From positions 1-35,143 of the forward strand of contig JALJEE010000053.1 in NCBI GenBank assembly GCA_023231475.1: a DNA stretch of 35,143 nt. The letters are read 5' to 3'. Origin of the DNA: Seison nebaliae (lineage: Eukaryota). Positions 10,075 through 34,142 of the stretch are shown here, one piece after another. The number at the start of each line of letters is the position of its first letter. Position 1 is the stretch's first letter. The notes below the pieces were generated by a model. It saw nothing but the letters and a program-made list of their open reading frames with translations. It ran no database searches and was not told the origin of the DNA. A program made the position numbers and the translations under genes.

Positions 10075-10785
10075 AAATGGCTTGTTGGAGAATACTAGGA
10101 AATAATACTAGCCCCGTTCGACAGTAGTAGACATTGTTTTCCTGAACAATTTGTGAGAGTACGGTGTGATGAGTCGATGTTCGTCCATCACTCTAATTTA
10201 CCCGGTAACATGATGACATTCAATTTTCCATCGTGCTTCATCAACATTAAGGACTGAATTAGAAGATAAATGGGTTGCATGTTATTCAAAATAAATTTAA
10301 TGAGGCTTATCTGACGATACGTCTTCCGATCGGCTGTTAACACTTTCCCATATAATTATTTTTAGTCTTTCATGCTTACACGAATAGATCCATTCAATCC
10401 TACGAAAGAAACTAATAAATTCTCAACATACTATTGTTTTCCTTCGAATTCTTCGGAAATCTTTCTTTCTCTACAAACAAATCCGACGGAATTGTCAAAG
10501 AAAAATCGATAAGCAATCTTATTACTAAATATTTGATTGGAATATTGTCATAGAGTAAAGGTCAAATTCAAATTAATTTCATTTATCATATATTATTATT
10601 CGCATGCATCAATAAATGTTTGATCGATTTCGAAAGATATAGTTTCTTTATGGGAAACATCATTCCAAATTAAATGTGCCTCTATCAAAAAACCTCTTCT
10701 TTACCACTCTAAAATACCCGACCATTTACCTTGCAATTTGATTTCTTCTTCTTGCCGAACATTTTCTTTACACAATTTTTTCCAT
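10075..10785 (-). pseudogene. Possible decayed coding sequence of unknown family
   Basis: About 230 codons read protein-like (WKKLCKENVRQEEEIKLQGKWSGILEW*RRGFLIEAHLIWND...) with scattered stops. Confidence 0.25.
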
Positions 10786-13700
10786 TAGGAAATTTTAGAG
10801 AATTTTTACTATTAAAAAAAAGTTGAAATTTCAATTAACACCATCTAAAGAACAGGAACGTCACAGACTGATTATAGGTATAGAGTGATGAACATTTTTT
10901 CAATATTTTTCTCAAACTTTCTACCATGAACTAGAAGATGGAGAAAGAGGTTTGGACCTCTGCCCCTTCAACTATTACTGAAATAAGTGATTCGGAAAAA
11001 TTGTCATTTTAGAATGATTAATCTCTTTTCGTGAATGTTTTTGGAAGACTTGAATTTATGAAAAGATAAGAGAGCCAATAATAAAGAATAAGTAAGATTT
11101 ATTGTTAACATTTGACTGGTGGTGTCAGTTGTCATTCAGACTCATTGTCATTTTGTATGGCGACAACATTTACAATATGATATCTAATTTGAACAATATG
11201 ATTATAGTTTTTGAGGAGTGGAAACGTAAGAGGAAAAATCGTTTTTATTTTTGTTAATGTTTATAGATATGTTGGGCGAATTCATGTATCTGTTACACAG
11301 TAATCTTAAGATGACTTTGATTTAGGTGGAGAATTGTTCGTTCATTGAGTTACGTTCCAATTGATTGAGAAAAATGAATGGGAGTAGGGATTGAATGGAA
11401 TGAAGGAGGGAGAAAGAAGTATAAGTGAAACAAATTAGGAAATCGACGTAAATTGTTCATGGACATAAAAATTTGTTCTTACTCAAATCGACTAACTGAT
11501 TTCAATTGAATTTTCAGAAGTTAATGTTGATTATTGTTTGAAATTGTCCTTCACATACTTCTTATCTTAATAGTCACTATAGTAACTTACTAAATAAGGG
11601 GTGAGAAGTATCTTGATGTATCAATTCGTTAGCGGAAGTTCAATTAATTTCATTGAAACAAGTGAATGTATTGGAAAGATTTCACCTATAATTTCCGTTC
11701 GATAAATGAGCGGCATTCTCAAGGCTCTTTCGCAGACATCTATTCCGATGATCGTTACTTGTTATCAGCCGAGTGAAAAGTGTTTAGGGAGAAAAGTGAG
11801 TTTCTTTTCCATTTTTCATTTTCACCTTCCTTATCTCAAATCCAAGTAGCGACATGGTCAAATTTAACGATACTATCAATTAAACGTCGATGATGCAACA
11901 TCAATCTGTCGTTCGATTATGCACATAACACATTCCATATCTATGTCTGATAAGATGCCTTATAAATCGCTCTTTTATTGATGTTTCATTAGTCATCACG
12001 ATTCCTTCATTAATTCTCCTTCCATCCATCCACTTTTATGGAAAAGAAGTTTTCATAACTAATTTCTCCTTTGAAATATCGAAACATCAACATTTCTCCT
12101 TTCTAATTCGCCTCTTTCATATAGAAGGAAATTCTTTTCTAAATCATCATACTCACCTCCTAATCTTTCAGGTCTGTTCTCGACATTGTTGAGTCAACAA
12201 ATGATTGCATAATCATGTTGCGGTGCAATCACGACTAATCAATGTTATTTCGTCGAAAACTTCTTCTACCATCAATTGTACTTTCTTAGTTGATAAGATA
12301 TTTCTCAACAAATCATTCCAATATGGTTTTTTCACTTTACTTAAATTATATTGTTAATAAGACTGTTTAAATGAAAAATGGGAGAGGGGAATGAAAATTT
12401 TGGAGAAAAAATAAAATTTTGGAAAAAAGATTGAAGGAAAGTTGAAATGAATTGATAGCGACTATGTTACATATGAGTCGCGGGCAAATTTCTAGGTGAA
12501 AACAAAGAAATATAAAAGAAACCGAATAACAACAAAATTTTAATTATTATAGTTATATGTGATCGGTTCTGCTACTTTTCCCGTTCTCATTTCGAATGTT
12601 CGGAACATGTTTCTTACTTTTTCATCTTTCGAACCTTCGTCGCTGCCAATTCCATTGGGAGATTGCCAAATGATTTTTTCTCTTTCGTTTTAACTTCCTT
12701 CAAATATTTTCTCCAATTTCTTATGTTACTCACAAAAGATATCTTGCTATTCTTCTCAGAAATTCTTCAACATCATATTTACCGAGTGGCACCTCTATTC
12801 CGTATAAAAATCAAATTCGTCATTTCAAATGGAGGATACAAAAGATGTTGACGTATTTCTTCATTACACTATTCTTTTCCAAGAACAATATTCCTCCAAA
12901 GAAAGACAGTTAGTTTTTCGGCAAAAGTTTCGCCTCAACATTTCAACCGATTAATATCAATTCAGAACTTCTCCATGAGAAACACATCGATTCGAATCGG
13001 GACATTTCCCATATAAATTTCATCGTTAACCATCATTTTTCCCTTCCCAAAATAATGTGTCGTTGTGAGATTTTATCTTTAACTTCTAATGAAATGTTGT
13101 TTATCAATCATCTGACAGGTCGATATTCAGATGATCTAAATAATCTAATTCTACAATTGTATAATACTAATTCGATAACATTCGATTAATTTTACAGAAA
13201 ACCATCAAATTTCTTATTTATCATCTAAATATAATTTCTCGGAAATACCAACAGTGATATCAAAAAGTTTATCTACGTGAAAATCTCAAGTCGATTAAAG
13301 AGCGAAAAAAGCTTTCCATATTTTTCTAATAGAAATTGCATTACATTCTTAAATTATCATCAATGAATTAAGATGATTGATTTTCTTCCAATTATCATAC
13401 TGAATTGGGAAGAAGAATAATATATTATTCGTTTGGTCTTTTTTTCTCGAACGAAGTAATTGATACCATAAAATGGAACATAAACGGATATGGATAGATG
13501 TTTAAAGGACATAGAAGTTTACGATATATTCGATTATCGTTTTGTTAGTTAATTTGTGTTGGTGAGTTGAAGATCGTTTAATTCGTAAAGGGTAAATATT
13601 AATTAAGGAATGAATAAATGTAAATTTATTGGTGAGTCAATAAAATATCATAATGACAGCAGATGATATTAGGCCTTAGATATTAGGTATTAGATGATAT

Positions 13701-13960
13701 TGTTCGGCAATGAACAAAAAAAAGTAAGTTATTTCGTCAATTTTTAATGATATTACGTGATAGAGTTGTGATATAGCGAATGATGAAGGTGAGAGTATTG
13801 AAATATTAGTATTTGATTGGAATGATATGGATGAATCAGTGAACGAATGAATAAATGGAAAAACATTGCAATTTACGTATATTTACATCATAATATTTAG
13901 CTCCTAATTCGATATGATATAACACAATTATATGTCCTTTATTCACATGTTCGACAGTAA

Positions 13961-14016
13961 ATAGATAGATAGGTAGGTAGATGGATAGGTAGATAGATAG
14001 ATAGATAGATAGATAG
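13961..14016. repeat. (GATA)n/(GGTA)n tetranucleotide microsatellite
   Basis: atagatagataggtaggtagatggataggtagatagatagatagatagatagatag. Confidence 0.9.
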
Positions 14017-16913
14017 TCAACTTGCTATTGTATTCCATGTGTCATCCATGAAGTTCGGGCACTCTATTAGGAGCTTATCATGCATTTTTTCCGACTCACT
14101 CATTTTATTTCCGTCATCATCTTCCCCACATCGATCCATGTAAACAATGTTTATCTATCTCTTCCATCAATCCATTTATTCCATTTGATTTTTTCCATTC
14201 GACTTTCCCCCGACACAATTGGACGACAATTCAATCCGTTCCTACTGATCATCTTCTAACGATTAATCACTCCATTTTTATTCTTACTTCTTTTCATTCC
14301 TCATCATATCCATTTCGATCAGACGTCTCTCGCAAATCATCTCATCTCATTGAGAAGAAGAACCAATCATACATTGATATCACCAAGTATAATATGATTT
14401 CGAGGGATAGTTGTCGGACGATGGTGCAGGTATCAACAAATCTCCTCTTTCTTCACTTAATCGACAAACGTATATATATACATACTCCTTAGAACTTCTC
14501 CATAATAACATCTTAACACGAACGAGATTCACTCCAACATTCTCTTTCTGAACGACAGAAACCTTTTACTGTTATGTAACATGATATTTGGAGAGTACTT
14601 TATCGATTAACTTTTCCTCATTAATTTCAAAATGGTTAATCATAATGATTATTTTTATTAAACCTTCCTCGGTCGCATTGGAGCGGAGAACTATAATTCA
14701 CGAAACTTCCATAAACACATCTCATTTTAACCTTCTATCTCCGAGCACAAATATTGATAATCGAATGTCATACGTATAACCATTTTGAATATCTTTATGT
14801 TTGTTATGAGAGGAGAAAAAATGTTCCAATAGCAAAATCACTCGACGAGAAACCAATTTGATAAACTCGATTAATTCACTTCTCCAGAAATCATCATACA
14901 CAAATATTAAGTTTTTATCGGCACAAATGAAGAGTAGATGTCTGGCGAGGAAGTAGCACGAATACTTTTCTCTCAAATTCGAAAAGAAATGGATGCACAT
15001 AAACATTTATTAAAGATAATTATGTGTCTATTTCATGAGAATCATGAGGTCATTTGTGAAAGTAATTCGATGAGAAAACTTCCAATTAAAATCGACGAAT
15101 TTCTTTTCGTAATGAAAAGGAGAAAAATTCCAATTATGTAACAGTTCTCAAATGAAATTCTTAGACATCTATTTATTATTCTCATGAAATTCATTTCTTT
15201 CACCAATTTGTTTTCCAGTAAATGTTTATTACAGAAAAAATTGAATTTATTCTGTTGTTCCCCAAATAATTTCCCGTTTGATCATTGATGAACTAAAGTA
15301 TTAATAATTGTTAAGATTATTTGAGGTCGATAATGTTGAAAGTATAAAACAATTTGAAATTGTCTATTATATTTTATTAACGAAAAACTTTCGGTATTTC
15401 CATTTTTTTTATTAAATACACCGTCATCATAAACGGCCTCACTGGTTCTATGGAGTATCCCATTGATTAATCGATGAGTTGAATGAAATTCTAATTTGGT
15501 GTGTACAGGATGTCTATTCGGTTTGATGGTTTGTGAAAATGGTTTTCGGAGTGAATTGAATGCGGGGAAATAAGTTAATGGGGGAAAGATTTGGTTAATG
15601 GAAATGGCAATTGATTTGTGGAAGAATGGTGAAGTAGATTAATGGTATCCGTTCGACTGATTGATTAGTATGAGATTGAATGAAGTTTGCGATTTGATAG
15701 GAATTATGGGAGAAAAAAAGTTTGCGCGAGTAATTGGGGGAAGAGTTGTTGCATAAAAGATGAAGTGCTGATGTGAGTAGTAGAAATGTCTCGAAGAATT
15801 CGTTCTTACGTTAACTATTCGTCATCATCAATTATTCAAGAAGGAACAATTCAATAATGTTGTCATATTCGCTCATCAATTACAGAATTCATTAATAATT
15901 ATTCTGCAATAAAATATGGAAAATATGAAGATAAGTATCAGAGAATGCTCTATATCTGTTATATCTCCATTTTTTATGAATTGTTATTCTTTCCTATATA
16001 TGTCTCTTCATACGTACGATTAACCGATGATATCGATGGTGTGAGATATGTAAATCGTTGTTCGAGATATAAATGGTGGGGAATGCGTAATATGATAGAA
16101 TTGGAAGTAGAATGAATGGAAATTCATTGTCTCGATTTCACAATACTCGTCTATTCTTTAATACTAATCACATATATCAACAGACGGATCATATGTAATT
16201 TTTATTGTCAATTACATCATTTTAATTAGACATGTGATGAAGGTGCGTACTCGGTGCATACTCGGTGCATAGATGTGATGTCGAGTAGACGTATAATGAT
16301 TGGAGAAAGGAAGATGGGAAATATTAAATGGAGAAAAGGACAATGAATAAAATGGAAATCAAATATCTTAATTTGATTTATAGAGATTATTGAAAAGTTA
16401 TGATGATTCAACTTAAGATACATTCTTATGTTTATCTCCAGAATTAAGTCGATAATTATTGGTAGTATGATTGATCAGATTGAACAATGTGAGCATGATG
16501 ATTGAACAATCGTCATTTACGAGAGATTTCCAAACGGGACTCATTACAATTCCGCGCCATGTATCATCAAAAAACAGACTGAATGGAATGTGGAATAGAA
16601 TAATCGAACGAGTGTTTTCCATGTAATTGTAAGTTCATTGAATGTCAGAATAGTGCTTCCTTCATATTTTCTCGATTTAATATGATATAACAGGAGAAAG
16701 ATTCCCGTCAACTATTCTTAACATTTTCCATTTCCTCAATAATTCTCCAGAAATAAATAAAGAATTGGCTACTAGTAAGATTAATAGATGAAGAGTCCCA
16801 TCCAAAACTTACTAGCTAACTCCTTTAAGTAATTTGCCATTAATTTCTCTCGTTAACTCATTTTCGTTCGCAGTATATAAACTTCGGTTTTCTCATAAAA
16901 ACAAATGAGTCTA

Positions 16914-17670
16914 GGACATTTGCCAGACGAATCGCTTATTAGATAAATGGACATTTGGATGACGGGACTTTTTGGTTAATGGACATTTGTTAGGTCAACC
17001 GCTTGGCATGTACTGCGCATACACAATACAGTTATGTTATATATTTTTGATATTTTCTTTTTTTGACATTAGAATTAAACCTTATTATTATTCATCAAAG
17101 GATTATTATCATTAGAAGTAAAATTTTAATTAAAATTTAAATCGTTTAGATTTTAAAAGATATATTTATTTTATGATTGGTACTTTAAAAAACTAATCAA
17201 ATGGTCGCTTTAAGGTATATATTAGGTATACAAATACCTAATACCTAATACCTAATTTTAAACTATTCTAATTCTCATGGAGAAAGTTCTACCGTAGATT
17301 AGATTTAGATCGAAGATTTCTAGTTTTTGGATCAAAAACTAATTTATCGGCACTGGATCCATTAAAAATATTTAAACTATATTTTAAAATACGGTAAATA
17401 ATTTTAAATACGTAAAAAATACGATAGTTATATTTTATTGAATCAAAAAATTAAAATTAAATTGAAATTAAGATTTTATTTTAATTGATACTAATCCTTT
17501 GAGCAATAATAATGCGGTTTAATTTTTAGGTCAAAAAAACAAATTATGAAAAATATAGAACATAACTGTACCATCTATATGCAATAGATCTACCAACTGT
17601 CCGTCAACCAAACAGCCGTTTTACCAAATAGTCTCGTCCTCCAAATGGTTCGTTTACCTAATGTCGTTTC
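16914..17670. mobile_element. Old non-autonomous foldback/MITE-like element with long degenerate inverted arms and GGACATTTG-like sub-repeats
   Basis: About 16947-17165 is the reverse complement of about 17430-17663 (tacagttatgtt / aacataactgta; tcaaaggattattatc / gatactaatcctttga). Outer ends carry ~16-bp sub-repeats. Confidence 0.75.
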
Positions 17671-18200
17671 TTCAAAAGAAATAATTTATTTGTAATTTAA
17701 TAGCAATCAATTTAATAATCGTCTTCTTAAGATAATTAATTATTATGAAGAATCACTTTTATTATAAAGTTGTCCAATTTCATCCCAAATAGTACTCCCC
17801 AATAACTGATGGCGATCGGTAAGCATATTGATAAATATCTCAGTTTTTAATTAACTCTTCTCTAAATTATAAGGAAAGAATCAACATTATTGTAAATAAG
17901 ACATTCTTCTTTCAAAGTTAAATAGAAAATATACAATAAGTTTACAAATGTACAATAAATTTTTAGAATGCTTGTAGAACTTTCTGGTAGAAAGATTAAA
18001 ATGAACAAGGATATTGGGCAATATTACTGGAATTATATTTCCGTAACAAGAAAAAAATGTTAGCTATATGTGAAGTTCCACATGTCTCACTCGTTCATCG
18101 GAGAAAGAAGAAGAGGAAGAAGGAAATTTAACTTAAAGACTTTGAGCATTTACTGATGAACTTCTATTTTCCCAAAAGTTTCTAACAGATCAGTTCGATT

Positions 18201-19759
18201 GGGGGACAGATCGTAACCCTATATCAAAATTTTGCAGCGGACAGTTCTCAGCCTAGTTTTTTATACTTCCGGACAGTTCTCAACCTTCTATTAATTTTTC
18301 GAACAGTTCTCAACCTTTTATTAAGTTTTCGGACAGTTCTCAACTTTTTTTCTCAATTTCGGACAGTTATCAACCTGTTTTTTCTATTTTCGGACAGTTC
18401 TCAACCTTTTGAAAAAAAAGGACAGTTCTCAACCTCCAAACATAATGAAAATTAAACTGAAAAAATAATAACCGTACATAAAAATCCTCCAGAGGACCGT
18501 TATTAACTCATAATCAGGACAGTTCTATACTTAGTTTGGTTTTACATGTCATGTCAGCCACATTATATAATTTATTGGTTTATCTGAAACAATAATTCCC
18601 AGTTAAAGATTAAGAAAGAAATTTAAGCCATCCAATTAATACGTAAATAGAATTCTATTTGGCACAACTAATCGTATTATAAATATTATACAATATATTG
18701 ACATTGCATTGACATATATTGCAATAAATTTGATTATTGCTGCTAATATTGTTATTTTTTAAATCTTCAACATTAAACTACCAAAAAAAATGTTCAATTT
18801 TGAAGATGACGAAGAATGGAGGAGATATCTACCACCAAATGAATTCCTGCCTCGGGAAATATTATCAACAGTACTTCCAACATCTGCACCATCTTCAACT
18901 ACTTCATTTCAACCATTTTCAACCACATTGACAGTCATCATCAGAACCAGGATGAATTCCTCGGACCTAAACAGATCCTAACGGAATCCCAAACAACTCA
19001 ACAAAACAATCTAATAGAGGGGAAAAATTACGGTCCATCAAAATTTAGGCAGATTTTTCCATTGAACCGTCCATCATTGATAATTTTCGAAAATTCGTTG
19101 GTAAAATGTTTCAAATGTGAAAAATTGCAAATGAATCTTTTTCGGAAAGGCGAAAGAAAAAGAGTATCCGAAAGGTGGAAGATGAGAAACTGAAAAGATT
19201 AGTAATTAATTCGACCTAAGAAATGTATGTTCTTTTTTTATTGAAATCGATAACATATTTTGTGAAAGTCTCGAGCAATAAATAACAATCTTCTTAATTT
19301 TTCATTTGAACAATTTAAAATGCTAAAAAGAGTTATTATATAAATTCCTATAATTATGACTTAATAGTTTTCCTCTTGCGAATTTACAGTTTCAGTGTGT
19401 TTTGAAGTTGAGAACTGTCCCTTTTCCTCAAAAGTTTGAGAACTAATTATGAGTTAATAACGGTCCTCTGGAGGATGTTTATGTACGGTTATTATTTTTC
19501 CAGTTAATATTTCATTATGTTTGGAGGTTGAGAACTGTCCGTTTTTTCTCAAAAGGTTGAGAACTGTCCGAAAATAGAAAAAGCAAGTTGAGAACTGTCC
19601 GAAATTGAGAAAAAAAAGTTAAGAACTGTCCGAAAACTTAATAGAAGGTTGAGAACTGTCTGGAAGTATAAAAAACTTGGTTGAGAAATGTCCGATTTTT
19701 GGGTTGAGAACTGTCCGCTGCAAAATTTTTATATAGGATTACGATATGTCCGGTTACCC
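18201..19759 (+). mobile_element. Internally deleted DNA transposon with ~320-350 bp sub-repeated TIRs, Mutator/Phantom-like, carrying transposase-like remnants
   Basis: 18204-18522 is an inverted copy of about 19407-19751, built of GGACAGTTCTCAACC units at ~30-bp period plus a shared unique block (aaatcctccagaggaccgttattaactcataat). Internal fragments NNLIEGKN...KFRQIFPLNRPSLIIF and RKVEDEKLKRLV resemble the MULE transposase C-terminus. Confidence 0.85.
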
Positions 19760-19954
19760 TTTCACTCTATAGAGTAATCTTTCTCTAGAAAAACCTATGA
19801 ACTGTATAAAGTGACTTAAATATTATGTCTTAAACTTAAAAAAGCATTGAAAAACTAAGAAGAAAACTAACATTGTAAGTTTAGATCTGTTGAGAGTTAT
19901 CATCGATTTGGTTTTCTTTCTTCTCAAATAAATGAGAACTTTAAAATTCATTAA

Positions 19955-20165
19955 CAACTGTCCTATGTAGGATTTTTATGACCGTTAATATTTTTCCAGT
20001 TCAATTTTGGTATGTTTTGAGGTTGAGAACTATCCGAAATGAGAAAAAACAGGTTGAAAACTGTCCAAAATTGAGAAAAGAAAAGGTTGAGAACTGTCAT
20101 ATTTTTGGGTTGAGTACTGTCCTCTACAAAATTTTTATACAGGGTTTCAATCTGTCGGGTTACCA
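19955..20165. mobile_element. Solo, more diverged right TIR of the same transposon family
   Basis: GGTTGAGAACTGTCC-like units ending caaaatttttatacagggtttcaatctgtcgggttacc, similar to 19721-19758. Confidence 0.8.
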
Positions 20166-20648
20166 ACTAATCGAATAACCGATAATCGTTATATTACTTG
20201 TTAGCACAAGATAATACTATATTATGTGCATAAAGAACTGGAAATGAATTATTGTTGATTGAGAATGAAAAATTATTTAAGAAAATTAGTAGTTAAGAAA
20301 ATAAGAAAATTTAATATCTCTTTTTATGTTAATTTATATTTAAAATTGGAGAGAATGCAATTCAAGAATTCATAAGACCAATTCGTAATATGTTTCTACA
20401 GATTCGTCAAAAAACTTATGCCGAAATTATGTTGAATTATAGAAAGTTAATAGAAAAGACAATTAAAAATTTTCCCTATTTTACAATTAATAAAAATTGG
20501 GTGAATTTGTGATTTCGCAAATCTGTTAATTTCAAATAACAAATTATAAGAAGACTATAAATAAGTGAAGAAATGTTTCGAAAGTTTAATTCGATTCTTT
20601 CAATTGTAAACGAAATATAGTTTAATCCCAATCATTCGGGAAACATTT

Positions 20649-21087: not shown

Positions 21088-22188
21088 TTATGTTGATTGA
21101 ATGTGATGAGATATATGAGATTGTTCTGCGATAGGTGAAATGTTTTTCGAAAGTAGAACAGTTTCTCGAAATTGAGTAGATGCCAAAAGATAATAAAAGA
21201 ATCGAATTGAATGAAGAATAATAAAGAATGGTCGTAAGATGGATAGAATGATGATATCGTTCGCTTTCGATTGATTGATGGAGAAAGCGAATAAATAAAT
21301 ATCGACAGGTAAAGCGAATAGAAGGAAGTTAAAACTCATTACAAGAAGAATAATGGAAATTTTTCGAATAAATTTCGATTTTTTTTCACATTGAATATTA
21401 TTGATAGAATTTGAGTTGTTGTCTTGTGTAACTTTATTGAGTGAGGATAGATAGACAGTAATAATGATTGATGTAACAACCATGAAGGAACTAGGTCCGA
21501 GAGAATAAAGAATTGTATGAAGAAGAGAATGGACATTAAAAAAATATTTTCTCCATCCATCATTAGTGAATTGACAAAGTTGTGGATTTGAAGAAAATTG
21601 ATAAACGAAATGTAAAGGAATAACGCTGATTAAAGAGATGATGGCTAAAGTGATACAAATCACATGAGTATAGAATGAGCCTTTGAATCTTCCATGATTG
21701 AATGAGCGAAGAATATTGAGAGCACAACTGGATGATTTGTGGAATAATCTTTTAGCACAATTCGTTTCATTCTCCAGTGATTGTCGACAATTATGAAGTA
21801 ATTTACTTTGATGTGCACTAGTAATGACTAGACATTGATGAAGACAACTTGTACATAAGATGAAGGAACTCCATTGTAGGGCGAAATAGCGAAATGTTCG
21901 TTTAGTTTGACATAGAAATTCATTTCCGCTACTAATGTCAACGTCGAGAATTGATGCTAACGTAAAATTGATACCACAACCAAAAAGAACGAGTAAATCG
22001 GCGAGACTTAGCCAAGCGAAATAAATAAATGTTGGAGATCGAAATCGTTTCTTGTAAATGTTGAGAAGGAATATAACGATAGAAATGGCATTTAACGGTA
22101 TGCCAATTAGAACTATAATTCCGATGATATAATTATAAGATATTCTTTCGATTTGACGTGCAAATTGGATATGGGAAACCATCGTCAT
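21088..22188 (-). CDS. Rhodopsin-family (class A) GPCR, FMRFamide-receptor-like/invertebrate peptide or chemoreceptor type, intronless, 366 aa
   Basis: Seven hydrophobic segments. TM1 GIPLN, TM2 FAWLSLADLLVL, Cys at top of TM3 (FLCQ), TM6 FLLFALP, TM7/H8 RFFYYLLASTQFR. Confidence 0.9.
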   Translation of the reverse strand: MTMVSHIQFARQIERISYNYIIGIIVLIGIPLNAISIVIFLLNIYKKRFRSPTFIYFAWLSLADLLVLFGCGINFTLASILDVDISSGNEFLCQTKRTFRYFALQWSSFILCTSCLHQCLVITSAHQSKLLHNCRQSLENETNCAKRLFHKSSSCALNILRSFNHGRFKGSFYTHVICITLAIISLISVIPLHFVYQFSSNPQLCQFTNDGWRKYFFNVHSLLHTILYSLGPSSFMVVTSIIITVYLSSLNKVTQDNNSNSINNIQCEKKSKFIRKISIILLVMSFNFLLFALPVDIYLFAFSINQSKANDIIILSILRPFFIILHSIRFFYYLLASTQFRETVLLSKNISPIAEQSHISHHIQST

Positions 22189-22817
22189 GGCTAGGAATGT
22201 GAAGAAATAATATTTTTAATTTTTCATAAACAATACGGGATGAATTAGATAAATCAAATTAGCAAGTCAATGTGAAGGAAATTAGAGTGTTTTTGTCAGA
22301 AAATTTACATCTGGAAATTTCTGTAGGATTTGTAAGAAATTCGAATTATGTGGAATGAAGAAGGATTTCTTCTCTCCTTACATCCATTCGATTTGTCAAG
22401 AGATTCATGATCAATTCATTTCATTCGAATGAACGAAAGATTAATAATTAATTGAAGTGGAAGAATGGGATGATGAATTTGAATAATTCGATGAAGGAAT
22501 TCGTTTTCTAAATGAAATTTTTATTTGAATTGAAATTGATGAATAAACTGAAGAGGAGAAAGAAAGTTGTATGAACGTAATGAAATTAATTAAAACTTTC
22601 AATCATAGTCGTAAAATTAGTATTTGCATAAGAAGAGGAAGAATAAATAAGAAAATATAATGAAATAGGAAAGGAATGTTGCATGATTAATAAAAAAGAT
22701 TGAGATGGGATGATTCACAAATGATCTTTGCACAAGATTAAAGAAATGAAATTGTGAAGGGACAAACAGATAGATCATTACCAGGGAATTTATATTTTAT
22801 TAGGAATATATCGGAAA

Positions 22818-25800
22818 TTAAATAATCTTCCCATTCTTTATCGGAGTAAAAAGTTTCGTTCGTAAATTGTTTTTCACTTCGTTGAACGTACGAGATAAAG
22901 GAGTCGTATTTGGACCAATTCGATTATTTGAATTTCTTACCGAATTATTCATTCCTAATAATTCTCGCGTATCATCCTCCTCATTAATCAGATGTTGTTT
23001 GTCCTCTTCGAAATCGTTGGATGATGATAATAATTGAATTTCTTCATTTCGATTCAACGAGAAACTACGACCGATTTTCGATAATCGATTATTCGACGTA
23101 TCAACTTGATCCATAAATTTTCCTTTTGCATTCGAATGACGTTTTCGTTTCTTCTCCTTCTTATTCAGGAATGAATGATGAATATCACCAGGATCTGTTT
23201 CCATATCGGTGGCAGGATCAAATAAATTATTTCGATTTCCTTCACAATTATTATTTGAATTATTCACATTATAACTATTTCGATTTTTAATAATGCGAAG
23301 AAGAAGACCTTCATTATTATCGTTGTCATGATAATGACCGTTCTTTCTTTTCATTTTATCGAACTGATATCTCTCCTTCTTCATATTGGAACGAATAAGT
23401 AATCGACGAAGACATCGTTGTAAACGACGAAGACAACAACGTGAGACGAAAATGAAGAATAAAAGAAATGAGAATAAAATGAAGAAAAAAGATGATAATG
23501 CCACATAAAAAATACTCCAATCACAATTCTCTTCATATAAAATATTTCTTCTCAACCATGATGACATCCAATAAGTGCCACAAATACAAACATGTGTCAA
23601 CGGTTCACAATAACCGTGATTGGAGCATTGATTCGAACAAGTTGATGATCGGATATCGAATAATAATAAAGACTTCCTCGTTTTATCATTAGTTCGATTC
23701 ATAAAGAAATTCATTTCATTATAATCCATTGTACGGAAAGTATCGATCAAACGTTGTTCCACTATATCACTTTTCATTTGACGCCATTTTCTTCTGACTG
23801 ATTTCGAACTTTTCAAACGTTCCCACACAATTAATCGAACTTGAATGAGACAACCGTGTAATGAACAAACTCCACGACGTTGAGTCAACGAATTCAATTT
23901 GAGACTATGTTGATCATCTTCTGGTGAGAGATCATGAAGATCTCCTTTGATTCGACGATCCACTACCATCGTCTCATTCAACAAAATATCAATCTCATCA
24001 TGATGATCAATTTTTCGTTGTGTTTCATTCAACTTCCCATAATGATAATGAAGAGCGACTGATCCACTCATTTGTAACGAATTGTCATTATATGGAATGG
24101 GCGAATTATAAGAGTACCAAGGCCAAGCCCAATTTTGAGATTTAAATAAACCTAATTGACTTGGAGCTAATACTCGCTTCCGTCCTAACATGTCCAATTT
24201 GAGTAGTTGACGATAAATAATATCTTTAATTTGAAATCGATAATATTTCTTCTCATTATCCGATTTGGTTTGATCGAGTAATTTTTTTAATCGTCGAACT
24301 AATGCCAATAATTCTCCATATGTCATCAGATCTCTTTCTTCCGATTTACTCCATAGAAGTAATTCTAATTCATTCTTCATTTCAACCATCTTATCAATTT
24401 CAACTAAACATTCATCACTCGCTGATAAATCGTCGGAATCGGTTACCGTTAAACGGAAACGATATGATCCTGATGGAATCATTTTCAGATTAACATAAGC
24501 GAGTGAATCATTCTGATTTTGGATTATTGGGAAAACTGAAGAATCATGAACATTCTCCCAATAATACTCTTTCGATGTCAACGATTCGTCAGATGTTAAT
24601 TCACCGTCCAAAAATAGGACGGTATCGTCCGTATTATTAATTTTTGTTAATTTCTCCAATTTCATTTTCGTTTGTTTCGATTCTTTCAATAATCGAAGAG
24701 ATGTATAACATCGAACTTCTACTTCTGGTGCGTAATTTTTCGCTTTGATAAGACTGAGATGTAATTTCGATGAGAGAATAATCGGTGATGATAATTCTGA
24801 TGATGAATCGATTTTATTCGAATCTTCATCAATTGACAAACTGTCAATATAACTTTTATGATCAACATTACTCAACGAATCGATAGAAAAGATAATTTCA
24901 AATTCATATTCCCCAACATACAACGAAGAGATGTTTGTGATAAATGAAGTCGGTCGATCGATAACGGCGATCGATCCATATAATTGTTTCCATTCAACTG
25001 ACGATGTAATTTCAATGAGTGACGGAGCTGATAATTTCTCCGCATCAACTGACACACTCAAACCATTGAAATTTCTATAGACGGGAATTGTTGTATTAGT
25101 TTGAATGGAAATATCATTTGAATTTTCCACTTCAATTGTTTGATAGAAAATTTGTGTTTTGTTCATCATCGAATGATCAAGTGAATGCCAAATGACTGTA
25201 AGATTACTATTGGGATAAATGACAGGTCTCGTCTTCTTCCACCAATGAGGATTCTCTCGAGGTGAAACGATACGTAATTCATATGTCTGTGTATCGATTT
25301 GATCGGCACCATCAGTGACGGTTAAATTAACGGAGAATTTTCCTGGTTGTAAATTCTTCAATTTCAAAATTGAAGTATGACTTCCTTCGATATCGATACT
25401 ATGTGAATCATCTTTCGAATTCAGTTTCCAATCATATCTCACAATGGCTTTATCGTCAGTCGAGGAATTTCCATAAAGGAAAACCGTTTCTTTCGGTAAT
25501 TGAACGATCATTGGACCTGTTATAACAGCGACCGGTTTCAAATCTTTCTCTTTGAAAACTTCGAATTGGACGCGACTTGAATTAGTGTAACCGATTTTAT
25601 TAGTAACGGATAATTCGAAGATATATGATCCTTGAATCATTTGATCGATTTCGATGAATTTTGAAGAGAAATCTTTCGATTTGATTTGTTTCACCATATT
25701 CTCATGATCTTTCAAATTGGGCACATCAGTCAATTTGAGAAATTTCCATTTATATGCCGTAATTCCAAAATCACATTTACTTCCTGACGCATCTAAAACG

Positions 25801-27164
25801 AGTTTAGCTGGGGCGAATAATTCTTTTGTTGACAATTGAATGATAGGTAAAGGGAGAACTTTCGATCGATTATAAATTAATAAAGTCACTCCAGTTTCTA
25901 ATATAATATTATTAGTTGGTGAATGCCATTTTAATTGAAATTTTTCTTCTCCTTCTTTATTGGGAGTACTAATTTTGAGATGGAGAAGATTGGTAATATT
26001 TATTTTGATGTTACTCGTTTGATTGAGAATAGAGAGTGTAAAATGTCGAAGATTCATTTCATCAACATCCAAATTCCTCTTATATAAATGATGGAAAATG
26101 GTGAAACTGATAAGTTTCGTATCATTCTTTGCCATATGTCTCTCTTGTTCTGAACTCACCATAAATATTTGATTGGATTCAATCGAGAAGAATTTCAAGA
26201 GATTTTCATCCTCAATACAATACGATTCATTTTTCGATGGCGTTCTCATATAAGTCAATCCCATTTGACATCCACAATATCCAGTTTTCGTCATATCATT
26301 AGCGAAGATACATCGATGAAAATCATAATGACAATTTGTATCATATTTCACGTTATTTTTATTCTTCACATTATTATTGTTGATGGCATCATTTTCTGGT
26401 GAATCGATGGCATTCTCTTGGAGAATGGAACAAATCATCGTTTGTGGTTGATATTGACAAATGTGATCAGATTGAAATTGTTTCCGAAATCGTTTCAATT
26501 CCTCAACATTTTCCAATTGAAGGAGATTTGATAATGGGGAATTAGTGGGAAGAAATTCTTCTTCGAATGTCAATAAATCTGGTAAATAATATTTTTTACA
26601 GATACACATATTTAACGATTTCTTACCATCATGAAATGGTTCACATTGTTCATTGGGACGTTTCGAACAAGTTCCATTACATTCACTTTCTTTCACTTCC
26701 AATAATTTTTTCAATCGATCAACATTTGTCGAGTGATGAATAAATGATGTTCGATCAAACGCCATCACTTTTTCTACACTTCGAATTACAATTAAATAAT
26801 TCTTTCCTTCATTTATCTCATCAACATGTTTCACGAGATTCTCTTTTCCATTTTTCGCCGAACACGATCCATCACTAATACAATTGATGAATGTACATCG
26901 ATTCTTCTTCCCGTTCCATTTGATGGTTTGACACGTGTCTTCCGATCCACAACATTCATTCAAACATTGACTTAACGTATAATTTTTTTTCGTTATCTTC
27001 TCTCCACTTTCCTCCCATTTCGTTTCACCATTTTCATAGAATTTTGGGATACAACCTTTCTCTATTTCAACTTTATTGATGACGAGAGAATGAATAAATA
27101 CGATGTTGACCAGAGCGACCAAAAATGGGACGGCCACAGCTACTTTGGTAGATGAACGACTCAT
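22818..27164 (-). CDS. KIAA0319L: KIAA0319-like / AAV-receptor family type I membrane protein, single 1448-aa ORF
   Basis: Signal peptide, Cys-rich MANEC-like region (CLNECC...C...W...C...C), PKD repeats (IVQLPKETVFLYGNSSTDDKAIVRYDW; GSYRFRLTVTD), EGF-like CSNHGYCEPLTHVCICGTYWM...ENCDWSIFYV, TM helix and cytoplasmic tail. Confidence 0.9.
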   Translation of the reverse strand: MSRSSTKVAVAVPFLVALVNIVFIHSLVINKVEIEKGCIPKFYENGETKWEESGEKITKKNYTLSQCLNECCGSEDTCQTIKWNGKKNRCTFINCISDGSCSAKNGKENLVKHVDEINEGKNYLIVIRSVEKVMAFDRTSFIHHSTNVDRLKKLLEVKESECNGTCSKRPNEQCEPFHDGKKSLNMCICKKYYLPDLLTFEEEFLPTNSPLSNLLQLENVEELKRFRKQFQSDHICQYQPQTMICSILQENAIDSPENDAINNNNVKNKNNVKYDTNCHYDFHRCIFANDMTKTGYCGCQMGLTYMRTPSKNESYCIEDENLLKFFSIESNQIFMVSSEQERHMAKNDTKLISFTIFHHLYKRNLDVDEMNLRHFTLSILNQTSNIKINITNLLHLKISTPNKEGEEKFQLKWHSPTNNIILETGVTLLIYNRSKVLPLPIIQLSTKELFAPAKLVLDASGSKCDFGITAYKWKFLKLTDVPNLKDHENMVKQIKSKDFSSKFIEIDQMIQGSYIFELSVTNKIGYTNSSRVQFEVFKEKDLKPVAVITGPMIVQLPKETVFLYGNSSTDDKAIVRYDWKLNSKDDSHSIDIEGSHTSILKLKNLQPGKFSVNLTVTDGADQIDTQTYELRIVSPRENPHWWKKTRPVIYPNSNLTVIWHSLDHSMMNKTQIFYQTIEVENSNDISIQTNTTIPVYRNFNGLSVSVDAEKLSAPSLIEITSSVEWKQLYGSIAVIDRPTSFITNISSLYVGEYEFEIIFSIDSLSNVDHKSYIDSLSIDEDSNKIDSSSELSSPIILSSKLHLSLIKAKNYAPEVEVRCYTSLRLLKESKQTKMKLEKLTKINNTDDTVLFLDGELTSDESLTSKEYYWENVHDSSVFPIIQNQNDSLAYVNLKMIPSGSYRFRLTVTDSDDLSASDECLVEIDKMVEMKNELELLLWSKSEERDLMTYGELLALVRRLKKLLDQTKSDNEKKYYRFQIKDIIYRQLLKLDMLGRKRVLAPSQLGLFKSQNWAWPWYSYNSPIPYNDNSLQMSGSVALHYHYGKLNETQRKIDHHDEIDILLNETMVVDRRIKGDLHDLSPEDDQHSLKLNSLTQRRGVCSLHGCLIQVRLIVWERLKSSKSVRRKWRQMKSDIVEQRLIDTFRTMDYNEMNFFMNRTNDKTRKSLLLFDIRSSTCSNQCSNHGYCEPLTHVCICGTYWMSSWLRRNILYEENCDWSIFYVALSSFFFILFSFLLFFIFVSRCCLRRLQRCLRRLLIRSNMKKERYQFDKMKRKNGHYHDNDNNEGLLLRIIKNRNSYNVNNSNNNCEGNRNNLFDPATDMETDPGDIHHSFLNKKEKKRKRHSNAKGKFMDQVDTSNNRLSKIGRSFSLNRNEEIQLLSSSNDFEEDKQHLINEEDDTRELLGMNNSVRNSNNRIGPNTTPLSRTFNEVKNNLRTKLFTPIKNGKII

Positions 27165-28791: not shown

Positions 28792-31700
28792 TTAAACAAC
28801 GGCTCTAGTTTTCAATAATTTATTTCGGAATAATTTCTTCCGAATTCCAAAAATAAAAATTTCGGCGAGTACGATACAAATACCGATACCCAGACCAACA
28901 ACCACCATCATGAACACTTCTGCCATATTTCTGATTCCCAGAGTGGCAGCACTCGCTTCCGATACGCCAGATTGTCGTCGAGGACAAGTGGCTTCAATTT
29001 GATTATTATTTTGAGTTTTCTTCTTTAACTGTCTCATTTTTAGCCAGTCGATATGAGAAATGACATATTTGGCATAACTTTGAATTATTTGATTTTTTTC
29101 TGATGTGAAATTTTCTGATGAGAATGAATTGGTTGATGTATGATCAAATATATTCGATCCACCAAATAAATTCCATGCGAAAAGAATGATATTTTGAATG
29201 GTGGAGAGACTATCAACATTTTTCTCTTGGATTTCCAGTTTGTTTTTATAGAAATAATTCTTTTTCTTTTCATCTTCATCATCCTCATTATCATTACTAT
29301 GGATTGGTTCATGTTGTAAGAGAATCCATTTATTATCCAAATCTTCGATGAATCCTTCTTCGTGAACGATCAAAATTTGTTTTGAAATAATCGACGCCCA
29401 GAGACTACCTTTCTTTACTCCGAAGCCCAAACTACTCCGACCAAACAAGTCACCGACTGTTACTAATTCACACGATTTAGCCGCTTCATATTCCAATCGA
29501 CTTGAATGCCAAATAAATGCTTTCAATTGTCTTTTAAATTTTAAGTAGAAACATTTTAAAAATTCTTTAAAAATTCGGAATTTTCAAATAAAAATGAACC
29601 CACTCAACACGTCTTTTATGGCGTTTTTCGGATTATTATAATTATATTTCGACATCAGTCGACACATTGTCGACAATTCAACTTGTTGTTTGAAATATTT
29701 GTCAACTGATGAATCTTTGATTGTTGCAATTCGGAATTCATCTTGTGGATTTCTCAACTGAAAAAAATGGAAATGAAATTGATGAATGAAAAGAGAAAGA
29801 AATGACGAAGGAAAGTTTCGGCGATGACGAGAAAAAGTTAAAACAATTGAATGAAATTAAGAATAATGAATGATTGAAATTATAAAATTCTTCATTTGGT
29901 TTCATCGAAAACATAAGGACAATATATTAGTTTGAAACTGTGATAAGCTTTCATCAAAAATTATAAGATTTATTCAAAAAGAATTCATCCACAAGAATTA
30001 TTCATGTTCTCTTCAGGAATACCATCACGAAGAGAATAATGTACAAAACGTAATCGAGAAAATACCCATGATGATAGTAGCACTAACAGAACATTTCTCC
30101 CAATGAGATAAACATTCAGTTAATTTCCCATAATTTGATTATTCTCAACTTCTTGAAAGTTGGAGAAAACAATAATGTGAAGGTGAGAGAAGTGGACGGT
30201 TATCGTTACGCAGATGTACAAGATGGAAGGAGATAATAAGAAATAATAGAAATCATAATAGCAAAAGAAAATGAGATTATTCGATACCTTTTGCCCGTGG
30301 ATGATTAATGTCTAATTTGAAAAGAAGATGGACAATTGTTGGAAAGAAAAAGAAAATGTTTAAATGTTTCTAAAGAAGAACTAATATTTTATCACTACTC
30401 TTCATCATTCCAAGCTAAATTACTGGAAACTTATTGAGAATTTCCTTTCTACAACTTATACAATTCTCTCTCATTCAAAAATCATTTCACGAGGTTCTTT
30501 TTAGAAGACTATCCAATATCATACTAACTCGCACGTCATCTATGCCAGAAATGGACGCTTCAGGTTGATCTAACACTAAGAACGCGGCCAAGTTAGCAGT
30601 GTAAGAAGAGACGACAATCATTGAGAATCCAGCCCAAACTATCCCCAAAATACGTCCAGAAAACGACGTTGGTCTCACTAGAGAAATAATCGAAAATTTT
30701 TTTAAATTTAAAGTTTAACAATCGCCAATTCCACTGCCGAGTAAGACGCCCCAAGTGAACCAATGTGAGTTGAGGAATGAGACATCGTTGGAAGAATCTT
30801 CATGATATTTTCGAACAAATTCATGATCCACTTTATTTTGAACCGTTTTCTCATCCATCATCAACATACTTCCTTCATTCTTTAACTTATCGATCAATTC
30901 CTTCAAATTCTCTAATGACGGTTCTTTTTTCATGAAACTTTTTTTCCGTAATTTTTTCGAAATTGTCGGTGAGAATCGATCTAATAAATATAAAGTGGCT
31001 GCTATCACTTCAACACTCAACAACACAACGAGCCATAATCGATATTGGAAAGGTTGGAGGAATGACGTTAAACTCGAATCTTTTTCTTTCTAACAATTTG
31101 TTTAAATAAATATAAATTGTCTTTATAGAAAAAGGAAAATAAATTAGAGAAGAAAGAAGAACTTTCTTCATCAACAATATCATTCCATGATATTTGAATG
31201 GTTTAGTAAAATCGATGACAGCTGATCTTTCGGCATTGATGGGTAATGGTGCGATAATCAGATCGGCTTGTTTCGAAAGAACTTCACCGACCATTCCTAT
31301 TTAAATATCTCGTAAAAGTTGAAAAGAAAGAGAATGAAAACCATTCCAGGATTTAGTGGTGAGATTATAATCACCATAATTATTATCAGCAACCAGATGT
31401 AATTCGAAAGAGAAATTTAATTTACTCTCTAATCGATAGAGGAGATCGATACAATAACCGAAACAACAATAATCGACAATTCCATTAGTGGTTAATTGTG
31501 GACAATAAGCTTCCCGAATATAGTTCGATTTATTTCTTCTACAATTTTTTCCTTTTCTTTTAAAAATGAAAGGAATCTCGTCAATCGTCACAATTAATAG
31601 ATGTGAATCGACTTTCACCCCTTTCGGCAATGCATATGAGCCACCCGGCCACATCAATTTCTCATGTTGGAATAATGTCAATCGACTTCCATACGACATT

Positions 31701-33332
31701 TTCATTGTCTCCTATTCGAAATTATTGATCAAAATCAAATTGATAGCTCACCAAAAAAACATTAAGAAATATTCAAAAATGATAAATACCGAAACAAATG
31801 ACAAATTCAAAAACAAATAATTAACTAACAAGAATAATCATAAGTTGTAAGTTCTATATAAATGAGAAGACAAACATCCACAAAGACAAGAAGAAGCACG
31901 ATTTTTGAGGAAGCGCATTTAAAGTTACCTCGACATTACTCTAGAAAAGGTTGGGCATACAAGTAAGGGAGGTGAAAAGGAAGGGAAGGGAATGAAAAGA
32001 AAGAGAATGAGAAAATGAACGAGAATTTTGAATCCATGCACTGCCTTATACTCTCCCACCACATTCAGCACATTGTGTTTCATATTCAACAATTGATATT
32101 TGAACAAATTAGTGGGAGTATAAACGAGATTTTTTAAATTCCTTCAAACAACAAAATTCGAATGAGAATTCTAATAGAAATGAACTTGATCAAATTTTTT
32201 CCCGTGGTAAATTTGATGAATGTTCCCGCGCTACATTCGTCCACAGGAAAATTTTCCTTTCTCAATGGTCGTTTCAATTGAGTGATGGCAACTTCGATAT
32301 ATGTCTGGAAATTTCACGATTTTTTATCATGGTTTTTTCGTGAATAAATGAGAGAACTTTATAAACGAAATTTAAGACACTGATTAAATCGACATTATTG
32401 AATGGTTTCGATTTCCATAAATCGAACGGTCGAAGAAATGGTTCGTCGATTATGGTTCGAAAACCGATAGTTCCATCAGGTGGAATGGATGGATGTTGAG
32501 CATTTAGAGCTTCTTCGTTGACGATCCAAAGGAAACCGATTTCAAATAAACCCATTTCTTTCGCTGATTTGAAAATATATCCAGCATCATGTTGACTAAT
32601 ATTGAAGATGAATGAAAATAATTTGAAGAGAAAGTGAAGAAGAAACTTCGCATAAAATAAAATGACTCGAGGTTCATATTCATTCAAATATTTCAAATCA
32701 TCTTTATATGATTTCTTTCCACTCTCATAAATGAGAACATGTTCGATACGATAATCAAAAACGTCAATGAGAGTTCTCAAATAATCTAAATGTAATTGAC
32801 CTTCGCCATCCGAACTGGTGAGGAAGACAAGACGACGATATTGAACTCGTTCAATTAAGGCTAGCCATGCCTCCGTCACATGTGCGAACGATGGTACAAG
32901 ATGGATAGTTGCAGGAAATAAATTATAATTATGCAACATTGTCGTACGAGTATTAAAATCGATGAGTGGAATATCATAATTAGTAGCGAGATAATAAAAT
33001 GCCGTTTTTATTAAAACATTCACTTCTCGAATGAAGACGTCATTAGATGTGGCGTCAATGAAAAGGAAAGATCGACGTATTTTTTGTTGTTGACAGAGAT
33101 CGTGAATTAATTGGAATGCATGATTATCTCGATAATCATCGATGAGATAGAAAGTTGCATTGAATTTCAAATTTTCCAAAATTCTCTTTATTTCCGTTCG
33201 TTGAACGACATCACTGAGAATGGTGATATGTTCGAATGAATTGCCATTTTCTAACAATTTTATCCGATTGTTCGATGAGACATTTATTATGGAATTGAAG
33301 AGAAGAAAAAGAAAAATTTGAAGAACTCTCAT
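28792..33332 (-). CDS. GRIN1: NMDA receptor GluN1-like subunit, 11 exons, about 1031 aa, atypical at key residues
   Basis: Introns 32596-32646, 32305-32357, 32142-32185, 31941-32020, 31712-31928, 31297-31341, 31090-31162, 30678-30719, 29758-30528 and 29531-29599 give an open 3096-nt CDS. Motifs [59 protein letters not shown] and [13 protein letters not shown] are GluN1-type. Confidence 0.95.
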
Positions 33333-33425
33333 CTGGAAATTGGTCTAAATTAGAAAAAAAAATATTAATTAAAAAATAAATTTTTATAATTTTTTTTTAT
33401 TCAAATAATTTTCCCACAAATATTT
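33333..33425 (-). promoter_or_regulatory. 93-bp spacer containing a poly(A) signal, an AU/U-rich tract and a splice-acceptor-like site abutting the GluN1 ATG
   Basis: On the minus strand: AATAAA at 33401-33396, then TTTTTTTCTAATTTAGACCAATTTCCAG|ATG. Confidence 0.55.
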
Positions 33426-34142
33426 TTAATCTTTTCTCAAATCCATTTTCTCTTGTTTCATTCCATCTTTCGTTATGATATTGATCAATAAAGAATCACC
33501 AGTATGAATATCTCGTTCTGTGGCGGAAACAAATACGTCTTTAATTAGAGCAAGTCCTTTCTCAATGCTAATTGGTTTCTTCTCCTCACCAATCTGATTC
33601 TTCATTCCGATCTGATTATCCAATAACGGTTGCAATAATGAAGAGGATGAACCGGCAGCACGATATTCTTCTCGTTCATATGAACCAACTGGATCATAAC
33701 TATAAATCGCTCCTTTTCCATCTTTATCAATTCCTGCTAAAATATTATAAGTGTAATATGGGAAGAATCGTCGAGAATAGAGCATTGTGGAGAGCATGGC
33801 AGCTGTCGCATGAACTTTCATCGGATGATGATGTAAAGATTCATAAATTTGATGACGTGCTTCCAATTGTTTCGTTAATGCCAATACATCACCATGGAAA
33901 CCGACACATCCTAATAATGTCTCTTTCGTCATCTTGTAAACATGAGGACAATTTCTATTATGTATCGAATAATATTCACTCAATCTCGTATCACTCGCTA
34001 TCAGTGCGAAATCATCACCAGCTATTCCTAATACCGTCCCACCATGGAACGAATATGGAGACCAATAATGATGTTGGTTAATACGATCCAATGCAACTAA
34101 ATCAGAAGATTGTTCGTTTTTTCGTTCGAGAAAATCCAACAT
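33426..34142 (-). CDS. PSMB1: Proteasome subunit beta type-1 (beta6), intronless
   Basis: [68 protein letters not shown]-terminal LRKD. First ATG at 34142. Confidence 0.97.

What the first reader, a model, noticed from the sequence alone, without database searches (positions are those of the whole stretch)
33333..33425. PSMB1-GluN1 spacer looks like an operon intercistronic region resolved by trans-splicing
Seen: same-strand genes only 93 bp apart. The spacer has AATAAA 24 nt after the PSMB1 stop, an AU/U-rich tract, a branch-like CTAAT and TTTCCAG directly before the GluN1 ATG, with little room for a promoter and only one GT. Known: nematode, tunicate and flatworm operons have short spacers of this layout, and SL trans-splicing occurs in rotifers. 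Inference: a housekeeping proteasome gene co-transcribed with a neural receptor, which would imply broad expression or post-transcriptional control.
Basis: partly seen in the sequence, partly recalled or inferred. Interest (0 to 1): 0.7.

Follow-up and report, generated by a model that had tools for sequence, protein, structure and literature searches.

The report
Possible two-gene operon in Seison rotifer
In the rotifer relative Seison nebaliae, a proteasome gene ends only 93 bases before a glutamate-receptor gene whose start is preceded by a strong splice-acceptor-like site, which likely but unprovenly means that both genes are copied as one RNA and cut apart by leader splicing, a process not yet reported in this group in the papers searched.

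Summary
The intronless PSMB1 gene stops 93 bp before the ATG of GluN1, a protein that NCBI lists under Seison nebaliae. Only one spacer feature clearly beats chance: the acceptor TTTCCAG directly at the ATG outscores all 23 frame-checked acceptors of the window (shuffle p 0.0002-0.004; 0 of 451 control ATGs). Introns here start GTT (20 of 23) or GTA, never GTG, so the spacer's single GT is a poor donor. AATAAA is chance-level, and CTAAT is not this organism's branch motif. [quoted passage not shown] Bdelloids, close relatives, use SL; a monogonont does not; Seison is untested. No RNA data were available. Rivals stay open: a TATAAAA at -56 allows a promoter in the spacer, donor-like sites inside PSMB1 allow cis-splicing, other gene starts show no general acceptor excess, and chaetognath operons avoid neural genes. 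The scan earlier noted a similar unproven operon in a bdelloid, and GTT donors in protists. If true, this is a new member of a known kind.

The parts
33426..34142 (-). PSMB1 (proteasome beta type-1), intronless, 238 aa; upstream gene of the pair
   Evidence: Pfam PF00227; exact protein in the collection, 56-68% identity to the 119 other listed relatives; conserved C-terminus
33333..33425 (-). 93-nt spacer, 13% G+C, no ATG, no stable fold
   Evidence: folding z +1.09 (region 33310-33440)
33412..33417 (-). only GT of the spacer (GTG type); poor donor in this species; would give an 85-nt intron
   Evidence: score -1.8, below all 23 frame-checked donors; GTG in 0 of 23 donors
33396..33401 (-). AATAAA, candidate poly(A) signal of PSMB1; chance-level
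33382..33388 (-). TATAAAA 56 nt before the GluN1 ATG, candidate TATA box; chance-level
33345..33353 (-). CTAAT and the TTTAG secondary acceptor (score 4.2, average for the species)
33333..33341 (-). AATTTCCAG, strong acceptor-like site abutting the ATG; the same 9-mer ends GluN1 intron 2
28792..33332 (-). GluN1 (NMDA receptor subunit 1) gene, annotated SNEBB_009579, 1035 aa, 10 introns in isoform P0121, hydrophobic N-terminus like a signal peptide
33530..34140 (-). donor-like GTT/GTA sites inside PSMB1 (33530, 33536 weak; 33652, 33685, 34140 strong) that could reach the acceptor by cis-splicing

Best explanation
PSMB1 and GluN1 lie head to tail 93 bases apart and are likely transcribed as one precursor from the PSMB1 promoter, which would be cut and polyadenylated just after the AATAAA while a spliced leader would be joined to the acceptor at the GluN1 start codon. 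Shown: the spacing, both gene ends, the strength and position of the acceptor, and the lack of a species-type donor in the spacer. Inferred: use of the AATAAA, read-through transcription, existence of an SL RNA in Seison, and use of this acceptor in trans. The remaining 35-55 nt between cleavage site and acceptor would act as a donor-less outron. The leader would supply the cap and almost the whole 5' UTR of GluN1.
For: (1) 93 bp is the shortest of 4 tandem stop-to-ATG distances measured; the others are 308, 423 and 629. (2) The acceptor scores 7.4 against -2.4 to 6.9 for 23 real acceptors (leave-one-out). Shuffle p 0.0002-0.004. Control ATGs reach that score in 0 of 451 cases within 5 nt and 1 of 451 within 15 nt. 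(3) 18 of 25 intron forms are 42-73 nt, and the spacer has no GT at that distance; its only GT is of a type used by 0 of 23 donors. (4) The ATG is the true start, so the acceptor is not that of a missed coding exon. (5) Bdelloids trans-splice one 23-nt leader to over 50% of transcripts (PMC1925144 passages), and Seisonidea are grouped with bdelloids in Hemirotifera (PMC12256650 passage). (6) Chaetognath operons are defined by gaps under 250 bp and include proteasome subunits (PMC12460157 passages).
Against: (1) No leader, precursor or SL RNA gene was seen. The bdelloid leader has no match in the window and Rfam finds nothing, but only 35 kb were searchable. (2) Gene starts in the window show no general excess of acceptors: score 3 or more within 40 nt at 7 of 11 genes, against 56% of 451 control ATGs; only 2 of 11 have a strong one (whose training set included 4 unverified introns). 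(3) The second strong case, the GPCR-like gene, has a GTT 41 nt upstream of its acceptor, so acceptor-before-ATG may be an ordinary 5' UTR intron in this genome (that donor is weak, 1.8). The same AATTTCCAG+ATG occurs again at 22311 in non-coding DNA. (4) A TATAAAA at -56 and strong donor-like sites in PSMB1 support the rivals. (5) The genome is compact throughout: convergent gaps of 130 and 188 bp; about 44-46 Mb (PMC8351084). A compact annelid has no operons (10.1101/2020.05.07.078311). (6) Brachionus lacks a leader, and chaetognath operons are depleted of nervous-system genes. (7) The site model rests on 23 introns, and the locus was picked for its look.
Confidence: 0.45

Rival explanations
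1. GluN1 has its own small promoter in the spacer, overlapping the PSMB1 3' end. The TATAAAA at -56 would place the start about 25 nt before the ATG. The acceptor-like site would be unspliced 5' UTR and incidental.
For: TATAAAA at -56; PSMB1 also has TATAWAW at -107/-105, while 6 of the other 7 starts tested have none within 300 nt. Brachionus 5' UTRs average 52 nt and are AT-rich. Dimorphilus shows compaction without operons. A neural receptor usually needs its own control (general knowledge).
Against: TATAAAA is expected in 17-20% of shuffles. It does not explain an acceptor stronger than all 23 real ones exactly at the ATG. It overlaps the likely PSMB1 cleavage zone.
Confidence: 0.23
2. The acceptor is used in cis. 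A non-coding first exon, starting at a promoter inside PSMB1 or at the shared PSMB1 promoter, splices over the PSMB1 3' part (198-353 nt) or over the whole PSMB1 reading frame (808 nt, from a GTT that overlaps the PSMB1 ATG) to the GluN1 ATG.
For: Donor-like sites at 33652 (6.8), 33685 (6.8) and 34140 (5.6) score like real donors. 7 of 25 intron forms exceed 100 nt, up to 771. Candidate 5' UTR introns precede the GPCR-like gene. It explains the strong acceptor without any SL system.
Against: There are 57 GT sites upstream, so some good scores are expected. The transcript would have to ignore the PSMB1 poly(A) site. The four GT sites of PSMB1 within 260 nt score 1.8 or less. All 3 annotated isoforms begin at the ATG, which says nothing on UTR exons.
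Confidence: 0.18
3. GluN1 is trans-spliced but not co-transcribed: a promoter inside PSMB1 or at the start of the spacer makes an outron-bearing single-gene RNA that receives the leader.
For: Same acceptor evidence as the best explanation. Internal promoters that create outrons are described for flatworms and tunicates (PMC12582326 passages). It keeps neural-specific control.
Against: It needs both an SL system and a hidden promoter; neither was seen.
Confidence: 0.1
4. An unprocessed or cis-spliced read-through RNA carries both reading frames, and GluN1 is made by re-initiation (for example after removal of the 85-nt GTG intron, which would delete the AATAAA).
For: The spacer has no ATG. The GTG-to-CAG distance of 85 nt is a possible intron size.
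Against: GTG donors: 0 of 23; score -1.8. Re-initiation after a 238-codon frame is inefficient in animals (general knowledge).
Confidence: 0.04

Closest known systems
SL-resolved operons of Oikopleura dioica and Ciona intestinalis (PMC7986045, passages)
   Same: Co-oriented unrelated genes with a very short gap; the predicted cleavage-to-acceptor gap here (about 35-55 nt) fits the O. dioica 60-bp cut-off.
   Different: Those are shown by SL reads; Ciona gaps are mostly about 1 bp. Here no leader is known.
Chaetognath operons (Paraspadella gotoi, PMC12460157; Spadella, PMC2481426; passages)
   Same: Same superphylum; gaps under 250 bp; proteasome subunits occur in operons.
   Different: Nervous-system and signalling genes are depleted from those operons, whereas the downstream gene here is an NMDA receptor subunit.
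C. elegans SL2-type operons (PMC1657053, passages)
   Same: Order of poly(A) signal, U-rich tract and acceptor next to the ATG.
   Different: The roughly 100 bp (89-838 in other nematodes) is measured from the poly(A) site to the acceptor; here AATAAA ends 63 nt before the acceptor, so the '93 bp looks like 100 bp' likeness is not like for like.
Bdelloid rotifer SL trans-splicing (via PMC1925144, PMC3795323, PMC2481426; the primary paper was not held)
   Same: Closest relatives with a known leader.
   Different: Operons were listed as not determined for rotifers in PMC2481426; the leader has not been looked for in Seison in the papers searched; the monogonont Brachionus lacks it.
Compact genome without operons, Dimorphilus gyrociliatus (10.1101/2020.05.07.078311, passages)
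   Same: Small genome, short introns and intergenic regions.
   Different: It was tested and has no leaders; its UTRs are not shortened, so it does not show that a 93-bp tandem gap works without trans-splicing.

Membership tests
SL-resolved animal operon | Co-oriented genes with a very short gap | tested here: met
   93 bp stop to ATG; shortest of 4 tandem gaps measured
SL-resolved animal operon | Splice acceptor upstream of the downstream reading frame | tested here: met
   Score above all 23 real acceptors; p 0.0002-0.004; use of the site not shown
SL-resolved animal operon | No usable cis donor for that acceptor | tested here: inconclusive
   None of species type in the spacer; strong donor-like sites 320-808 nt upstream in PSMB1
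SL-resolved animal operon | Poly(A) site of the upstream gene inside the gap | tested here: inconclusive
   AATAAA present but chance-level; only 3 of 12 genes have AATAAA within 50 nt of the stop
SL-resolved animal operon | Non-genomic leader on the downstream mRNA | not testable with these tools
   No RNA reads were available to lay
SL-resolved animal operon | SL RNA gene in the genome | not testable with these tools
   No whole genome held; none in the 35-kb window
SL-resolved animal operon | One promoter and a two-gene precursor; no start site in the gap | not testable with these tools
   Needs CAGE, RT-PCR or long reads; a chance-level TATAAAA lies at -56
SL-resolved animal operon | Gene order and short gap kept in relatives | tested here: inconclusive
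   No relative locus found in metagenome contigs: 0 of 42 pattern matches confirmed
GluN1 / NMDA receptor subunit 1 | ANF-receptor, ligand-binding and channel domains with best solved-structure matches to GluN1 | tested here: met
   (all 60 shown matches are NMDA receptor chains, nearly all named NMDA 1)
Proteasome beta type-1 (PSMB1) | Proteasome domain and best hits named beta type-1 | tested here: met

The most novel reading that the evidence does not exclude
Seison nebaliae runs nematode/tunicate-style operons resolved by a spliced leader, and here places an NMDA receptor subunit behind a housekeeping proteasome gene, so that neural expression must be set after transcription. Its spliceosome also reads an unusual animal donor (GTT in 20 of 23 introns), which is what makes the GTT-free spacer a working outron. 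This would extend trans-splicing to Seisonidea and suggest it is ancestral to bdelloids, seisonids and acanthocephalans.
Probability: 0.4. Interest if true: 0.68.

Novelty: new member of a known kind. Interest (0 to 1): 0.45.

Why it matters
SL trans-splicing is patchy in Gnathifera: present in bdelloids and chaetognaths, not found in Brachionus ESTs, and not addressed for seisonids or acanthocephalans in the papers searched. A confirmed operon in Seison would fix the pattern of gain and loss and tie it to the smallest genome reported for the group. A neural receptor in an operon would run against the depletion seen in chaetognaths. The test is cheap, because mRNA-seq of this species is described in PMC8351084. 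If a rival holds, this is a promoter or UTR exon squeezed into a neighbour gene, a compact-genome curiosity.

Tried and rejected
No whole genome is held. Run search: no RNA holder listed; this is no evidence on expression. Laying 4 runs on 29000-33352: all are assembled contigs, X1 marked 'probably DNA'; no listed piece spans the stretch, no listed joint matches any of the 10 GluN1 introns, and no loose end was listed at the ATG (68 loose ends and 59 pieces were not shown). This says nothing for or against a leader. Metagenome scan with GluN1: 0 of 42 matches confirmed, so no synteny test. Rfam: 0 matches at E 1 or less. Bdelloid leader: 0 matches in the window with 3 mismatches. Spacer folding is no better than shuffles. 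'Branch-like CTAAT' rejected as evidence: 0 of 23 introns have CTRAY in the last 40 nt. 'Only one GT' is weak by itself: 3 of 12 gene 3' flanks have at most one GT in 93 nt. A window-wide excess of acceptors before start codons was tested and not found. My first gene A intron model was out of frame and was corrected. 4 gene D introns and 1 gene E intron could not be frame-checked and were dropped from the final site model. The binomial test used a wrong count (21 of 24) and was redone as 20 of 23. A representatives search with the GPCR-like protein was still queued and gave no result. No clear gene was found upstream of PSMB1 within the window. Literature: searches showed no paper on SL or operons in Seisonidea or Acanthocephala, on GTT donors in rotifers, or on an NMDA receptor in an operon (judged from listings and the passages named). 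The library lacks most subscription papers, and the primary bdelloid paper is not held. No supplements were read; those of PMC8351084 may bear on transcript ends.

Full report
What is there. The window is one AT-rich contig with closely packed genes. The protein search named the downstream gene as SNEBB_009579 of Seison nebaliae, 100% identical and on a contig of the window's length; a neighbouring GSTZ1 is SNEBB_009573. On the minus strand, PSMB1 runs 34142-33426 without introns, and its last residues match its relatives. GluN1 runs 33332-28792 with 10 introns in isoform P0121. Its first exon aligns in register with NMDA1 chains (residue 110 against 105) and begins with a hydrophobic stretch. 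All 3 annotated isoforms start at this ATG.

Which motifs beat chance. The spacer is 87% A+T, so most motifs are cheap. In 5,000 shuffles AATAAA appears in 39-50% (18-23% at positions 10-45), and at most one GT in 10%. Only 3 of 12 genes have AATAAA within 50 nt of the stop, and two other 3' flanks are just as AT-rich. CTRAY is absent from the last 40 nt of all 23 checked introns, so CTAAT is not a branch motif of this species. The acceptor is different. I built a site model from 23 introns whose reading frames close (11 donors and 11 acceptors from annotated GluN1 isoforms; 12 introns inferred by me in three other genes), leaving out the intron that shares the spacer's last nine bases. The spacer acceptor scores 7.4; real acceptors score -2.4 to 6.9. 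Shuffles reach it in 0.02% (within 5 nt of the ATG) to 0.4% (within 40 nt), and 0 of 451 and 1 of 451 control ATGs reach it within 5 and 15 nt. With the larger first training set the p values were 0.003-0.015. Allowing for 11 gene starts, the result stays modestly significant, but the training set is small.

Donors. Introns here start GTT in 20 of 23 cases, GTA in 3 and GTG in none; GTT makes up 41% of all GT on that strand (p 7e-6; 10 of 11 for annotated donors alone). 18 of 25 intron forms are 42-73 nt. The spacer has no GT at that distance from the acceptor. Its one GT is GTG, 85 nt away, and scores below all real donors. So an ordinary short 5' UTR intron cannot end here. Longer ones could: good donor-like sites lie 320, 353 and 808 nt upstream within PSMB1, and 7 of 25 intron forms exceed 100 nt. 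With 57 GT sites upstream, some such scores are expected by chance.

Context against a general SL pattern. Tandem stop-to-ATG gaps are 93, 308, 423 and 629 bp, convergent gaps 130 and 188, and one divergent gap 470 (genes with uncertain starts were left out). Of 11 gene starts, only GluN1 and a GPCR-like gene have a strong acceptor at the ATG; moderate sites are no more common than at control ATGs (7 of 11 against 56%). The GPCR-like acceptor has a GTT 41 nt upstream, about normal intron size, and a second AATTTCCAG lies 123 nt before its ATG with a GTA about 70 nt further up. Both donors score low (1.8 and 0.15), so this gene may have cis 5' UTR introns or may be a second trans-splice target. 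The spacer also holds TATAAAA at -56, which would suit a start about 25 nt before the ATG, though it is chance-level.

What is known (passages seen through term look-ups, not whole texts). Bdelloids trans-splice a 23-nt leader to over half of their transcripts, while Brachionus plicatilis ESTs showed none (PMC1925144; leader table in PMC3795323). Seisonidea are placed with Acanthocephala, and these two with bdelloids (PMC12256650; the preprint 10.64898/2026.06.08.730799 supports the first link). The S. nebaliae genome paper gives about 46 Mb, compact genes and two lineages, and contains 'operon' 0 times and 'splic' once (PMC8351084). Chaetognath operons (gap under 250 bp) include proteasome subunits and are depleted of nervous-system genes (PMC12460157). 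Nematode gaps are about 100 bp from poly(A) site to acceptor (PMC1657053); O. dioica uses a 60-bp cut-off and Ciona about 1 bp (PMC7986045). Here AATAAA ends 63 nt before the acceptor; with cleavage 10-30 nt after the hexamer (general knowledge) the gap would be 35-55 nt, tunicate-like. Dimorphilus shows compaction without operons. Flatworm and tunicate acceptors can be shared between cis- and trans-splicing and fed by internal promoters (PMC12582326).

How it most likely works. Inferred: transcription from the PSMB1 promoter runs through the spacer; cleavage after AATAAA frees PSMB1 mRNA; the short donor-less remainder is replaced by a capped leader at the CAG before the GluN1 ATG (0.45). Rivals: own promoter in the spacer (0.23), cis-splicing from an exon within or before PSMB1 (0.18), leader splicing from an internal promoter (0.10), two-frame mRNA (0.04). 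These odds are my judgement. They start from roughly even odds that Seison has a leader, are raised by the short gap and the unpaired strong acceptor, and are lowered by the lack of a window-wide signal and by the neural nature of the gene.

Verdict. The feature is real and suggestive but not diagnostic. It works like an SL-type intercistronic region on sequence grounds; membership cannot be claimed because the defining RNA features were not testable. If true it is a new member of a known kind, in a lineage where the process is not reported in my searches. Earlier notes of this scan describe a similar unproven cluster in a bdelloid and GTT donors in protists; I did not test them and do not count them as support. 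Interest 0.45.

Noticed in passing
window 872-32646, minus strand (GluN1, MMD-like, BTB and gene A introns): Intron donors are GTT in 20 of 23 frame-checked cases (10 of 11 annotated), GTA in 3, GTG in none, with no fixed bases at +4/+5 and no CTRAY branch motif. This departs from the usual animal GTRAG and recalls Entamoeba GUUUGU with its altered U1 (10.1101/2022.06.08.495308, passages), though it is far less rigid. No report for rotifers was seen in the listing. It may be more interesting than the spacer.
   Followed up: partly
window 22188-22381, minus strand: A GPCR-like single-ORF gene (no Pfam hit) has two strong acceptor-like sites upstream (22191 and 22311) with weak donors 41 and about 71 nt away: either 5' UTR introns or further trans-splice sites.
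   Followed up: partly
window 7628-7710: The end of the GSTZ1 reading frame (plus strand, stop at 7710) overlaps by about 83 bp a coding-like minus-strand frame that stops at 7628. The annotated GSTZ1 protein is cut to 155 aa against 214 aa for the open frame.
   Followed up: no
window 30717-31093: Low-depth contigs about 90% identical to GluN1 exons occur in runs X1, X2 and X4. They may be a second lineage of the species or a paralogue; a full contig would allow a conservation test of the spacer.
   Followed up: no
window 31712-32020 and 29758-30528: Annotated GluN1 isoforms differ by two 24-nt micro-exons (31853-31830 and 30311-30288).
   Followed up: no
window 22818-27164, minus strand: A 1448-aa intronless KIAA0319-like PKD-domain protein; several genes here are intronless (PSMB1, GSTZ1, this one) beside intron-rich ones.
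   Followed up: no
window about 18230-18560 and 19410-20130: Arrays of a short repeat (GGACAGTTCTCAAC-like) in opposite orientation, as at the two ends of a non-autonomous transposon, in a gene-poor stretch 10300-20500 (seen; no repeat tool was run).
   Followed up: no
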